Below, piece after piece: positions 7,036 to 51,428 of a DNA stretch of 64,000 nt. Positions within the stretch are counted from its first letter, which is position 1. Every line of letters begins with the position of its first letter. A model generated the notes under the pieces. The model ran no database searches. It was not told the DNA's origin and saw only the letters and a program-made list of their open reading frames with translations. Origin of the DNA: Octopus sinensis (Eukaryota); NCBI RefSeq assembly GCF_006345805.1, contig NC_043010.1, positions 27,218,001 through 27,282,000 of the forward strand, read 5' to 3'. Both the position numbers and the translations under genes were made by a program.

Positions 7036-7335
7036 GTCTTTACATTAGAATCTATTCATCGGTATTGTCTCATACTACTTATACTCGACACTTACTACTG
7101 TCGTGATCTTTACATAGAGTCAGACAAGTGCGAAACGTGAATGAAAAAGCGTAGAAATAGAAAGCAAAGAAGGAACAATGGCAGAAGTGTACAATGGAAG
7201 AAACAGAAAGGAACCTAATGCTTTGGGTGAGACCATTTATCAGAGAAAAGAAAAGCATACGACAGGCAAGAGAAAATCATACACTAATGAATTTACGTTT
7301 GTCTACATGGTGGACCTAGTGTGTAACATACATAC

Positions 7336-7392
<57 letters not shown>

Positions 7393-7481
7393 GTATGTAT
7401 GTTACATACGTCACCAGGAGGGCTGACGCCATCACGGCTTCCTCTAGCCTGCAAAGGGAGATCATTCCCCGAAGAAGCGGA

Positions 7482-7534
7482 TGCCACATACGAACCTAGG
7501 TTTCAAGGTGTTTGCCTATTATCAACGTATGGCA
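7482..7534 (-). ncRNA. Type I hammerhead ribozyme motif, U3:A8 core variant, GUU site
   Basis: Minus strand: TGCCATACG-TTGATAA-TAGGcaaacaCCTT-GAAA-CCTAGG-TT-CGTATGTGGCA. Confidence 0.65.
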
Positions 7535-7795
7535 GGCACCGCTACTCGACGAACGACTCTCTGTGCAGGCTATATATAAAGATTTTCACAGTAAATACAC
7601 TTACTGATGTAGAAAATCTGCCCTAGCCACATTCAGATGGCTAACGTCCCTTATGTTATGGAGCAGTTACTGTCTATATCTCGTTTAGAGAATTATTATT
7701 GCTGTCGAACAGATTTTCTACATCAGTAAATGTATTTACTGTGAAAATCTTTATATATAGCCTGCACAGAGAGTCGTTCGTCGAGTAGCGGTGCC

Positions 7796-7848
7796 TGCCA
7801 TACGTTGATAATAGGCAAACACCTTGAAACCTAGGTCCGTATATGGCA
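7796..7848 (+). ncRNA. Type I hammerhead ribozyme motif, U3:A8 core variant, GUC site (predicted cut after 7837)
   Basis: TGCCATACG-TTGATAA-TAGGcaaacaCCTT-GAAA-CCTAGG-TC-CGTATATGGCA; stem I pairs and helix III is the palindrome CCTAGG. Confidence 0.75.
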
Positions 7849-8106
7849 TCCGCTTCTTCGGGGAATGATCTCCCTTTGCAGGCTAGAGGACGCCGTGATG
7901 GCGTCAGCCCTCCTGGTGACGTTGATGATCGCCTGGGGCTAAATGCATCAGTAACACCCCCACCGCCCTGCCCTGTCCCTAGCCACATTCATATATAGCC
8001 TGCACAGAGAGTCGTTCGTCGAGTAGCGGTGCCTGCCATACGTTGATAATAGGCAAACACCTTGAAACACCTTATGTTATATATATATATATATATAATA
8101 TATATA

Positions 8107-8157
<51 letters not shown>

Positions 8158-8446
8158 GAGAGAGAGAGAGAGGAAGAAAGAGAGAGAGAGATTGATAGGC
8201 ATAACCTAGTAATAATAAAATTAGGTCTTCCTAAACTTTGTAAATTTTGACAGAGAAAATTGACAACAAAGCAAGCAAATAATCTGAGAAGCAAATGAAA
8301 ATAAATTCGCCAGTGGAAGAAGCAGAAAAGAATTAACTTTACGGGTGAGACCCTTTCTTAGGGAAGAAAAAAGAATAAGAGGGGCAAGAGAAAAGCAAAA
8401 GTTATACGCTGTCACTTATACGATGTCTGTTACGTGGCAGGCCAAG

Positions 8447-8518
<72 letters not shown>

Positions 8519-9324
8519 CAAGTAATAGTCACTGCTGAAAAATATAATCTTCCTAAACTTAGAAGATTTGATAGAAAAGGAAGGACAACAAAGCAAGCAG
8601 TTTGTGAAATAAAATAACGTGACCACAAAAAAGAAAAATTCAACAACAATCATGTCCCCCAGAAAAGTGTCTGGTTTCTAAATGGTTTCTTTATTGGGTA
8701 TGTTAGATTTAGAGAACCAAATGTGATGCCGAAGGATTAACCTAAAATTTAGTTCGCCCAAAGTAACGAAATTATCTGTTACACGTGTATAAAACACCTT
8801 TTATTGTTTTCGATATGGTCTAATTATCTGATTATCCATGTAACATGAAGTTTAATTAAAACAGTTTCCAAGCAAGGAATGGTATAATTAATTCGAATGC
8901 TTCATCAGTTTCAGACTGATGAATATTTCAGATCCAAGATATTTCAGATTTAAAATGACCAAATTGATAATTAATTATATTTTTCGGGAATTTTTGTTTT
9001 ATTTTTAACCAAAAAATAATTGCAGATCCATTTTTATCCAGTTATTAATCACTATTTACTGAATTCTTCTGTTCTGGTCAATATTGTGTTCCTTTTCTTT
9101 CAGGAGTCAATAAAATAATACTTACCACACAGTCCACCCTGCGTATATATATATATACACGCGCGAGAAAATAAACAATAGCAACGTGATTTGAAAGAGA
9201 ATTGTCTCTGTTTTCTTGAAGTTCGATGTTTGCATCACATTGCTGGTAGAATTTTAAACTAATTGGTGAAACCGATTGGTTAAATCGATTTCTGTGAAGT
9301 TAACTGCTTAGCTGAAACGCACAT

Positions 9325-10136: not shown

Positions 10137-11160
10137 CTTCGTAACACAGTGTAGGTAAAAATGCACTGGAGTCTTTATTCATCTGTCAAGTCACAACAAG
10201 GACCTCAGACAAATAATACTTCCCTTAAGATGTGAGCTGTCCCCAATAAGACTGAAGACATCAATCTTGCATGGGATTTCCAGTCGCATTAAGAAGTCTT
10301 GAAGTTTCAATGGGATTGAGCCCAATGCTCCGATCACCAATGGTATCACTTTTACATTATCCTCTCGCATTCCATACAGTCTTGCTATTTCCACTTTCAA
10401 TTCGGAGTACTTGGTGATTTTTCAACCTCTTTACTCACAACATTCATGTCATTTGGTATGGCTACATCAACGGTCTGATAACATTTGTCTCTTATTCAAT
10501 ATGACAATATCAGGTCGATGGTGTTCGACTACACGATCCGTCTGAAAATTATAGTCCCAGAATATCATTACTTTTCCATCCACCTGCATAACTTTACTTG
10601 GTACATACTTATACCAGTTCTCTGTTACTTCATATTTGTATTTACGGCGTAAGAGCCAATGAAGATACACACACACTTTATCATGGCGGCGCTTGTATTC
10701 TTTTTGTGCAAGGCTCTCACATCCACTTTCCAAGTGGGTCACATTTTCCACACCCTTTCCACTGAGTCTATATTTCACTGATTTGGTAGCGAGTGCCTGG
10801 TCTTGTGCCACAATGATCAGTCTTTCGGTGGTTCGTTTCAAATCACCTCACTCAAGCCATGCCCACGATGCTGTATTATCCTTAACATCTTGTGTATTTC
10901 CTTTCAAACTGTCCATGCATTCTCATTTCAAGAAGGTATTTTCTCCTCTTTGGTTAAACGCTTCCTTGCCCATCATTTCATCTGCATTTACATCCATATC
11001 TTTCGCGGCATATTGCAGCAGGTCTTCATCACTATTTATCAATTACTCGGCAAGCGTTCTGCTTTCACTCCTTATACAATGGTCTATACTAATTAGTCCT
11101 CTGTCATCATTCTTTCGTTTCATATACAGTCTGTTTACGTTTGCTTTAGGGTGTAGCGCT
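10136..11160 (-). mobile_element. 5'-truncated Dong/R4-clade non-LTR retrotransposon (RLE endonuclease), pseudogenised
   Basis: ALHPKANVNRLYMKRK..RGL; IVAQDQALATK; ENVTHLESGCESLAQKEYKRRHD (zinc-knuckle region); RPDIVIL; VIPLVIGALG; 3' end runs into (AAT)n. Confidence 0.9.
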
Positions 11161-11175
11161 ATTCTTCTTCTTCTT

Positions 11176-11206
<31 letters not shown>

Positions 11207-11263
11207 TTATTATTATTATTATTATTCTCCTTCGTCTTACTATTATTATTATTACTATTATTA

Positions 11264-11302
<39 letters not shown>

Positions 11303-11321
11303 TATTATTATTATTATTATT

Positions 11322-11786
11322 GAGTGAGAGAGCAGTGCATGCCATCAAAGTGACACTGGGGTAAAATATACGAAGCCCAGCATACCCATCATGACTACCC
11401 GTCTGATAAGGGTACACCAGGCACATGCATCACAACCATATGTGCACGACATGGTGATCTCATATCAAGATAAACAGTACATGACCTTGCAGGTGGGGCC
11501 CTGTTAGAATTTTCTTCAGGTCGAGTAGCCCATCCTGCTCAAAAGGTCCCTGAATAAGGGTTGCTTTAGGATGTTGAACGAAACACCTATGTTTCCAGAG
11601 GTGAATTATTCAAACTCCAAAGAATCCCTCTCAACACATGGCTATGATGCTCCCCCACTACTTCTGCTCGTGATCAGAGATGCACGTATTGTCAGCCACT
11701 AAGGGACATGCTCAACTGGTTAAGGTCAAACAATTGACAAGTAAATCTGTGATATTGAGCAGAATATTTGCTGTAGCCCATCTTTT
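11322..11786. mobile_element. Unclassified ~465-bp insert embedded in (ATT)n, possibly the 3' end of a non-LTR element
   Basis: Complex, more GC-rich block flanked by (ATT)n on both sides; no motif confidently recognised. Confidence 0.4.
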
Positions 11787-50321: not shown

Positions 50322-51428
50322 ACAGAGGTTGCTGTGAATATATTGTTGTCTAAATTATGCAAAAATGAAATAACACTGACATCTCATTTTAACAGATCTA
50401 TTTACCAAAATTACATAAAAAAATATCTTGAAATACTAAAGAGTAAACATATTCAATAAAATCACCATTGGTTTCAACCACAGCTTCCAGACGACTTTGG
50501 AATCTTCTGCAACTCTTCTGGATGGTCTCCTTGTTTAAGTTGGTGAATACTGCCATAATCCCTGCCTTCAGTTCATCTTTGGTGTTGCAAAGAGTTTTGT
50601 TGGTCTCTCGCTCAACTGCGCTCCAAACATAATCAAGGGGCTTGCAGTGTGGGAAGTTAGGTGGTCAGATGTTAGGGGTGATGTGGTCGCAAAAATTCTC
50701 TGACAACCATAACTGGGTTCTCCTGCTTGTGTGGCATGGTGCAAAGTCCTGTTGCCAGACACAGGGCCTTCCAACAGCCACCCTCTTGACTCAGGGCAGC
50801 CCTACCTCCTCCAGGAATGTGATGTTGGCCTCCGTGTTAACTCTGAGGTCGTGTGGGAAGATGAATGGAAGCATAACGTTCCCATCACTAGTGATCACTC
50901 CAAACATCATGATGTTGACTGGATGTTTGATTTTTATTTCTCTCGGAACATGTCTCAGTGTGTTTACTATCTGGTCCTGATAGAAATATTTCTTGTCTGA
51001 GAAAAACCAAAGCATGTTCGGTTGGATGGGATGCTGGAGTTTGTTTAAAAACTTCGTAGAGAGATCTTTTCTCTTGTCCTTGATGGCTTGGGATAAAATT
51101 TGGCCCTTTCTCATCTTGGATGAGGAATACCAAATGTCTTCATGCACCTCTTCTGCCTGATAAGAAACTCAGACACTCCCATGTCCCTGACAATAGACCT
51201 GATTGACTTCGAGGGATCGTTGTCAATCATAGCCTAGATCTCACCAACAAATTCAGGAGTTCCTTTCTTATCAGAACGATCAGAGTGTGTTTTCCGAGCT
51301 GCCGTACCTTCGTAATCACTTATCTAACTCTTTCCGAATCCTCTGCACTGTCCTCAGATTGACACTCAAACACTCTGAAATGTCCATATTGGAGCTTCCG
51401 GTGCGAATACCAAGTAGTACAGCATCTC
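50322..51428 (-). pseudogene. Decayed DD37D (maT-type) Tc1/mariner transposase
   Basis: HTH DISECLSVNLRTVQRIRKE; WFFSD; VWQQDFAPCH-...-PLDY with 37 residues between the Ds; several stops and frameshifts. Confidence 0.92.

What the first reader, a model, noticed from the sequence alone, without database searches (positions are those of the whole stretch)
7408..8080. Inverted-plus-tandem architecture suggests a ~356-nt circularly permuted monomer (retrozyme or Penelope pseudo-LTR)
Seen: a 213-bp inverted repeat with an 89-bp spacer. CCCTAGCCACATTC recurs at 7621 and 7977 (356-nt period). A third copy restarts at 7991, breaks just after GAAAC and joins CTTATGTTAT, which also occurs in the spacer. 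Extra hairpins lie at 7711-7750 and GACGCC-gtgat-GGCGTC. There is no credible protein, and (TA)n flanks both sides. Inference: a non-autonomous structured RNA was reverse-transcribed with template jumps. Transcription either way yields a ribozyme and ~200 bp of dsRNA.
Basis: partly seen in the sequence, partly recalled or inferred. Interest (0 to 1): 0.75.

Follow-up and report, generated by a model that had tools for sequence, protein, structure and literature searches.

The report
Penelope-pasted hammerhead retrozyme, scrambled copy
This is one scrambled copy of a small, protein-less jumping repeat with hundreds of relatives in the genome and a predicted self-cutting RNA fold; its back-to-back insertions almost always end at two different fixed sites, which likely records a borrowed Penelope-type enzyme priming both DNA strands on one RNA.

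Summary
7621-7976 is one full turn of a young, dispersed, non-coding 356-nt tandem unit (166 exact ribozyme sites for this subfamily, 1,156 for the wider family; controls 0 and 3). It carries a type I hammerhead with a U3-A8 core swap and a palindromic helix III, with covariation across sister families. Insertions land in (AT)n, have ragged 5' ends and two fixed 3' ends 44-46 nt apart: the Penelope 'tail'. In head-to-head insertions with two canonical ends, 61 of 63 have one short and one long end, and both arms share rare alleles. This points to double priming on one RNA by a Penelope-type enzyme. No autonomous partner was found, and circular RNA and cleavage are untested. This copy is atypical: three private template jumps, one intact ribozyme per strand, both predicted masked by the 213-bp duplex, so it cannot release a circle. 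A Tx1-like LINE inserts site-specifically into sister subfamilies (27 of 30 copies). The scan's unchecked notes report the same family, end rule and LINE elsewhere in this genome.

The parts
7337..7388 (.). (TA)n target, left side
   Evidence: 169 of 227 canonical ends in the family are followed by ATATAT within 12 nt
7391..7406 (+). 16-nt inverted copy of host flank 7322-7337; likely fold-back synthesis from the nicked (TA)n before the jump onto the RNA
   Evidence: sequence; mechanism inferred
7408..7620 (-). Left arm, monomer positions m90-m302; outer end non-canonical (m302, ACGT microhomology with the flank)
7485..7531 (-). Hammerhead copy in the left arm, cut triplet GUU (private change)
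7621..7976 (+). One full 356-nt monomer (m1-m356)
   Evidence: 45 listed matches of 336 nt or more at 95-100% (the window's own included) among 40 scored of 1,607 candidates
7660..7703 (+). 44-nt optional tail between the short end (m39 = 7659) and the long end (m83 = 7703)
7711..7750 (+). Predicted hairpin; a hairpin of different sequence can be read at the same place in sister families B and C
   Evidence: centroid; alignment read by eye
7757..7883 (+). Predicted rod with the hammerhead at its tip (z = -5.9, 0 of 200 shuffles)
7799..7845 (+). Type I hammerhead: helix I, core UUGAUAA (U3-A8), short helix II, GAAAC, palindromic CUAG loop, GUC with predicted cut after 7837
7889..7905 (+). GACGCC hairpin
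7977..7990 (+). Start of the second turn (m1-m14)
7991..8068 (+). Out-of-register piece m133-m210 replacing m15-m28; a half hammerhead without its cut site
   Evidence: the 3' joint is unique in the genome
8070..8080 (+). Canonical short 3' end (m29-m39), where reverse transcription likely began
   Evidence: sequence; same end in 14 of 44 family segments
8078..8154 (.). (TA)n target, right side

Best explanation
The element is one rearranged insertion of a non-coding, hammerhead-bearing 356-nt tandem retroelement (non-LTR retrozyme type) that is likely pasted into (AT)n by a borrowed Penelope-like RT-endonuclease, which likely primes both cut DNA strands on one multimeric or circular RNA at two fixed sites 44 nt apart. 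SHOWN: fixed-period dispersed family; hammerhead with covariation; two fixed 3' ends; ragged 5' ends; head-to-head arms with one short and one long end; arms that share alleles; (AT)n targets; occasional 9-15-nt target duplications; no linked ORF. INFERRED: (1) staggered nicks about 10-13 nt apart give two 3'-OH primers; (2) one starts at m39 and the other at m83 of the same RNA; (3) both cDNAs run back past the ribozyme site, often for more than one unit, and are joined 5'-to-5', which makes the inverted repeat; (4) the template is uncleaved multimer or a circle made by dimeric hammerhead cleavage and ligation (I put the circle at about 0.55). In this copy the right cDNA likely began at m39, jumped after 11 nt to m210, jumped back to about m14 and then ran a full turn. 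The left strand likely folded back on the flank first and entered the RNA at m302 instead of m83.
For: Family and period: (periods mostly 347-362 nt). Hammerhead pattern: 1,156 sites vs 3 in the control; subfamily pattern 166 vs 0. Named hammerhead pairs on 17 diverged copies: 91.6% of cells paired, 24 cells changed on both sides, 0 of 500 shuffles, including C3-G8 / U3-G8 / U3-A8 and the loop III palindrome (related sequences can beat this control, but the slid controls fall to 16-52%). End rule: 20 of 20 in the window's family (54 loci); 61 of 63 over 173 loci; 13 of 13 in 40 loci picked only by the ribozyme pattern. The two arms of a locus differ at 40 of 1,358 polymorphic-site comparisons (2.9%) vs 30% between loci; successive turns differ at 41 of 1,581. 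5' ends within 5 nt of the cut site: 1 of 69. TSD-like repeats in 14 of 173 loci vs 0.6% of mismatched pairs. A young autonomous RT + GIY-YIG family in the same genome has a similar small hammerhead, (AT)n targets and two 3' ends 45 nt apart. Papers: tail = interval between two RT start sites, both strands nicked and extended, dimer predicted (PMC11167929); tail often at one end only (PMC8557442, PMC3846280); U3-A8 variant and dimeric palindromic helix III (PMC4209133).
Against: No autonomous element sharing sequence with the unit was found, so the enzyme is inferred from insertion signatures only. In the autonomous family, two inverted insertions fit the short/long rule (L134, L139) but two look long/long (L135, L136) and one is non-canonical (L137). 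31 of 94 two-armed loci have at least one non-canonical end, this copy included. Frangieh et al. saw no strand difference in start site in vitro, and hammerhead cleavage was not needed for insertion. The catalytic helix II has predicted probability 0.003 in the circular monomer, and 8 of 9 Xenopus retrozymes tested by Li et al. did not cleave. The 5'-end test is biased: main arms were chosen as full-length matches. Queries for families B and C contained the tail.
Confidence: 0.8

Rival explanations
1. Same Penelope-dependent element, but with no circle: linear read-through transcripts of tandem copies are the template, and the hammerhead is a weak passenger, as in many PLE pLTRs.
For: PAc inserts from unprocessed RNA (PMC11167929). 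PLE hammerheads cleave poorly in vitro (PMC4209133). The active fold is not the predicted ground state. Every genomic signature here fits a linear multimer equally well.
Against: Core, helix I with its extension and the palindrome are kept with compensatory changes across families about 60% identical. Arrays of more than 3 turns persist although every insertion is 5'-truncated (longest arm 1,152 nt), so multimers must be regenerated somehow.
Confidence: 0.4
2. The inverted arm comes from self-priming or fold-back on one strand and the tail from endonuclease resolution of the intermediate, not from two priming events.
For: Proposed in PMC3846280 (self-priming on an antisense template) and PMC8557442 (EN-mediated resolution); passages read. 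Shared alleles between arms fit this too. The window's left end shows fold-back on the flank.
Against: The arms are usually not mirror images from a common apex: they have different 5' truncation points, and the second arm often extends beyond what the first contains. Both outer ends fall on fixed RNA positions that correspond to RT start sites in vitro (PMC11167929).
Confidence: 0.2
3. These are truncated ends (solo pLTRs) of an autonomous PLE, not a self-propagating family.
For: The scan's notes reached this verdict for look-alikes in other genomes (unchecked). PLE fragments lie next to four loci (L020, L026, L068, L267).
Against: The same seamless join and period recur in every multi-turn arm. 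No PLE ORF was attached in 160 loci. The neighbours read at base level (L020, L068, L267) are separated by (AT)n, and the neighbouring PLE families have their own, different ends.
Confidence: 0.06
4. The palindrome and the third piece are assembly artefacts.
For: The private junctions are not seen in 4 public runs. The 3' joint is unique in the assembly.
Against: The arms differ at 4 sites, each a singleton allele in the family. 94 of 173 loci have the same head-to-head class, with rule-bound ends. The junctions have microhomologies.
Confidence: 0.05

Closest known systems
Metazoan non-LTR retrozymes (PMC7229834: passages, part 2 of 6 and Discussion read; bioRxiv 10.64898/2026.07.22.740005: parts 1-3 of 5 read)
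   Same: Non-coding tandem units of 150-450 bp with a type I hammerhead. Weak helix III capped by a palindromic tetraloop (as HHR_Amex1) and a U-U at the base of helix II (as HHR_Amex2). Co-occurrence with PLEs, which both papers propose as the mobiliser.
   Different: U3-A8 / U3-G8 core. Short dispersed arrays of 1-3 turns, more than half as head-to-head pairs. The full PLE tail signature with paired ends is not described for retrozymes in what I read. Cleavage and circles are not tested here, and no pLTR parent was found.
EN+ Penelope-like element insertions: pLTR, partial tandem, inverted 5'-truncated copy, optional tail (PMC8557442 and PMC3846280 passages; PMC11167929 parts 1-2 of 4; PMC4209133 passages)
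   Same: Two fixed 3' ends, inverted arm, AT-rich or (TA)n targets, TSDs near 9-13 nt, palindromic-loop hammerhead including the U3-A8 variant.
   Different: No ORF. The tail is 44-46 nt rather than 30-40. The papers say the tail is often at one end only; here it is 61 of 63.
Non-autonomous Chlamys PLEs such as MRC1 (PMC8557442, passage)
   Same: Non-autonomous PLE derivatives with multicopy head-to-tail insertions.
   Different: Those generally resemble an autonomous family at the 3' end; no such match was found here.
Transposon-targeting Tx1-clade LINEs: Tx1 in Tx1D, Tx1-Mar in Mariner-N4 (PMC4494074, passages); for the side finding
   Same: APE-RT LINE with strong preference for one site in another mobile element, with tandem insertion at the target.
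   Different: The target is a hammerhead retrozyme, 5-25 nt upstream of the core. Tx1 membership was not tested by a tree.

Membership tests
Non-LTR retrozyme | Tandem non-coding unit of a few hundred nt | tested here: met
Non-LTR retrozyme | Type I hammerhead in each unit | tested here: met
   Rfam found no hammerhead model at either threshold
Non-LTR retrozyme | Two consecutive complete hammerheads in one array (criterion of Li et al.) | tested here: inconclusive
   Met by other copies (three sites 356-358 nt apart near C2:1525000; L020); not met by the window copy
Non-LTR retrozyme | Loop II - helix I tertiary contact of canonical motifs | not tested
   An extended helix I with a 3-nt bulge and a 6-7-nt loop II are present; the contact itself was not modelled
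Non-LTR retrozyme | Self-cleavage and circular RNA in vivo | not testable with these tools
   Only assembled contigs of runs of uncertain type were available
EN+ PLE insertion signature | Optional 3' tail between two fixed ends | tested here: met
EN+ PLE insertion signature | Tandem plus inverted 5'-truncated copies | tested here: met
   94 of 173 loci are two-armed
EN+ PLE insertion signature | AT-rich or (TA)n target, short TSD | tested here: met
   169 of 227 ends; 14 of 173 TSD-like repeats
Autonomous PLE | RT + GIY-YIG ORF between pLTRs | tested here: not met
Non-autonomous derivative of an identified PLE | Sequence similarity to the pLTR of an autonomous family | tested here: inconclusive
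   None in 102 PLE loci, but only 150 of 5,029 GIY-YIG candidates were scored
MITE / foldback DNA transposon | Constant terminal inverted repeats | tested here: not met
   Arm lengths and inversion points differ at every locus

The most novel reading that the evidence does not exclude
A dimeric Penelope RT-endonuclease docks on one circular retrozyme RNA and primes the two target strands from two obligately different sites 44-46 nt apart, rolling round the circle; this would explain the PLE tail, the inverted pLTR and retrozyme spread in one step. The retrozyme in turn hosts a Tx1-like LINE that inserts just upstream of the hammerhead, rides along in retrozyme insertions and may use the ribozyme to end its own RNA. 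The window's subfamily, changed at that site, would be an escape variant.
Probability: 0.3. Interest if true: 0.78.

Novelty: new member of a known kind. Interest (0 to 1): 0.52.

Why it matters
How animal retrozymes are mobilised, and how PLEs make tails and inverted ends, are stated open questions in the papers read (PMC7229834, PMC8557442, PMC11167929, the 2026 preprint). This small, young family gives countable genomic footprints (61 of 63 paired ends; arms from one template) and a 356-nt substrate for a direct in vitro test. The window copy itself is a dead-end insertion; its value is as a record of template jumping. The retrozyme-targeting LINE would add a ribozyme element to the known targets of sequence-specific LINEs.

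Tried and rejected
Rfam: no match at gathering scores; below threshold only hairpin and (TA)n noise, no hammerhead family. Partner hunt: GIY-YIG family search, full-length loci, a third PLE family, and a profile search of 102 PLE loci found only nested independent insertions and weak hits. The apparent link at L068 dissolved: tandem units of that PLE lack the element. Sequencing runs: no RNA holder listed. Contigs of four runs guessed to be RNA hold the 7976-to-7621 join, and one 390-nt contig of a sister variant closes on itself (30-nt end overlap); tandem DNA gives the same, so this is not used as evidence for a circle. Three A>G differences listed there (7787, 7833, 7843) are not taken as editing: 7833 and 7843 are genomic alleles in the family, and no DNA run of the same individual was available. 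Four other runs did not cover the private junctions; a hole proves nothing. One search gave 9 short/long pairs because the short-end position of one reference was mis-set; one search corrected it (13). Its 5'-end tally (1 of 63) cannot test run-off at the cut site, as loci were chosen for an intact ribozyme. RNAalifold on 17 copies found the helix I rod but not the catalytic fold. No tRNA gene in the window. Eight overlapping or duplicate loci were dropped before the 173-locus count. No earlier scan note matched by sequence.

Full report
Observation. No open frame of 120 aa overlaps it. Below, m1-m356 means 7621-7976.

Family. A search of the window's own 2.7-Gb genome with the monomer gave 1,607 candidates, of which 40 were scored; 45 listed matches span 336 nt or more at 95-100%, the window's own included. 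In the 30 fetched loci, m356 joins m1 without a scar wherever an arm crosses it. An exact 33-nt ribozyme pattern of this subfamily occurs 166 times, control 0. A looser pattern occurs 1,156 times, control 3; these are sites, not insertions. Sister families B (357 nt) and C (352 nt) are about 60% identical to it from the ribozyme to the long end.

Ribozyme. 7799-7845 reads as a type I hammerhead: helix I, core UUGAUAA, 3-bp helix II with a U-U at its base, GAAAC, palindromic CUAG loop, GUC. On 17 copies less than 92% alike, chosen from 70 complete segments, the named pairs hold in 91.6% of cells, with 24 two-sided changes; 0 of 500 shuffles reach this, and slid controls give 16-52%. The 3-8 pair runs C-G (13), U-G (1), U-A (2), unpaired (1). 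Pair 1.1-2.1 is broken in 6 of 17, mostly old copies. The U3-A8 swap and the dimer model for palindromic helix III are in PMC4209133 (passages). Rfam does not detect the motif. In the circular monomer helix I is predicted to form (0.76-0.90 for five pairs) but helix II is not (0.003), in keeping with a ribozyme that needs a partner or is weak.

Insertion signature. 3' ends pile at m39 (14 of 44 segments) and m83 (17 of 44), while 5' ends are scattered. Across 173 loci of all subfamilies (8 overlaps dropped), 79 are one-armed (43 long, 32 short, 4 other) and 94 are head-to-head. Of these, 63 have two canonical ends: 61 short/long, 2 long/long, 0 short/short; 31 have a non-canonical end. In the window's family, whose query did not favour an end, it is 20 of 20. 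In 40 loci picked by the ribozyme pattern alone it is 13 of 13. 169 of 227 canonical ends abut ATATAT, and 14 of 173 loci show a non-(AT)n direct repeat of 9-19 nt, against 0.6% of mismatched pairs. The two arms of a locus differ at 2.9% of polymorphic-site comparisons vs 30% between loci, like successive turns of one arm (2.6%); 1 of 69 arms starts near the cut site (biased by selection for long arms). This is the PLE signature. The tail is described as often at one end only (PMC8557442; PMC3846280; passages). For the anole PLE in vitro, it is the interval between two RT start sites, both strands are nicked and extended, and a dimer is predicted (PMC11167929, parts 1-2 of 4). I did not find the paired-end count or its link to retrozymes in what I read; searches were and cover open-licence papers only.

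Partner. The genome holds young RT + GIY-YIG families. One has its own small hammerhead, (AT)n targets and two ends 45 nt apart; another has a U3-A8 core. None shares sequence with the unit, and no PLE ORF was attached in 160 family loci. In the 45-nt-tail family the end rule held in L134 and L139 but apparently not in L135 and L136. The enzyme is therefore inferred, not identified. Li et al. (bioRxiv, parts 1-3 of 5) and Cervera and de la Pena (PMC7229834) propose PLEs as retrozyme mobilisers.

This copy. Read in the direction of synthesis, the right arm starts at the canonical short end (8080), copies 11 nt, jumps to m210, copies to about m133, jumps back to about m14 over a 7-nt imperfect match, then runs a full turn to m1. 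The first joint is unique in the genome. The left end has a 16-nt inverted copy of its own flank, then enters at m302 through ACGT. All three pieces carry the rare m166 T allele, so one template is likely. The four arm differences are singletons, which argues for real arms that aged in place. Raw data did not cover these joints. A transcript over both arms is predicted to bury both ribozymes in the duplex (probability 0.0), and each strand has one cut site at most, so this locus is not a source of monomers.

Side finding. A 5.3-kb LINE (zf-CCHC ORF1; APE, RT, zf-RVT) lies inside sister-family copies with a duplication of up to 20 nt. With only the LINE's 3' end as query, 27 of 30 fetched copies run straight into the retrozyme just upstream of the core; one more runs into the target plus another LINE, and two into unrelated DNA (two pairs may be segmental duplicates). 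Twelve of 22 loci examined have in-phase retrozyme directly upstream. Four 5'-truncated LINEs lack it but end at a canonical retrozyme end plus (AT)n, which suggests co-mobilisation. No LINE was found in 50 loci of the window's family, which differs at that site. Tx1-clade elements that target other transposons are known (PMC4494074, passages); a ribozyme target did not appear, of which I saw listings only apart from that paper.

Earlier scan notes. Notes on other genomes raised the 'PLE stub' rival, which my calls reject here. Notes on other pieces of this genome, seen after my analysis, report the same family type, end rule and LINE. They are unchecked AI notes, not independent support. Their label of the host as an octopus was not tested.

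Verdict. Real, and a new member of a known kind: a PLE-dependent non-LTR retrozyme with unusually clear mechanistic footprints. Confidence is 0.8 for that, about 0.65 for paired double priming and about 0.55 for a circular template. Interest 0.52.

Noticed in passing
L284:4730-8437, L285:2226-8425, L290-L337: Tx1-like LINE inserted site-specifically just upstream of the hammerhead in sister subfamilies (27 of 30 copies), some apparently carried along by retrozyme insertions; not seen in the window's subfamily.
   Followed up: yes
L068 minus strand near 1743; L103-L142: Young two-ORF PLE family (4.27-kb tandems) whose hammerhead core reads CCGAAGA (U4 to C), invariant in the copies scanned; 45-nt tail.
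   Followed up: partly
L062, L066, L067, L071: Other PLE loci in this genome carry U3-A8 hammerhead cores; the 781-aa family has a long upstream second ORF.
   Followed up: partly
L182, L206: Ends at m59, midway between the two canonical sites, at an internal TATAT; L182 has it on both arms.
   Followed up: no
L005: Flanks of this copy appear as loose ends in contigs of four runs from three coded organism labels: an insertion shared across samples.
   Followed up: no
window 7192-7386 / 8311-8514 and 8116-8277 / 8448-8599: Old degenerate direct repeats (about 69-71%) around the insertion; it landed in a decayed tandem repeat.
   Followed up: partly
window 10467-11429 (minus) and 50791-51168 (minus): Frames that look like a decayed R2/R4-type retrotransposon end and a mariner-type transposase piece (recalled resemblance; Pfam found nothing for the two frames tested).
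   Followed up: partly
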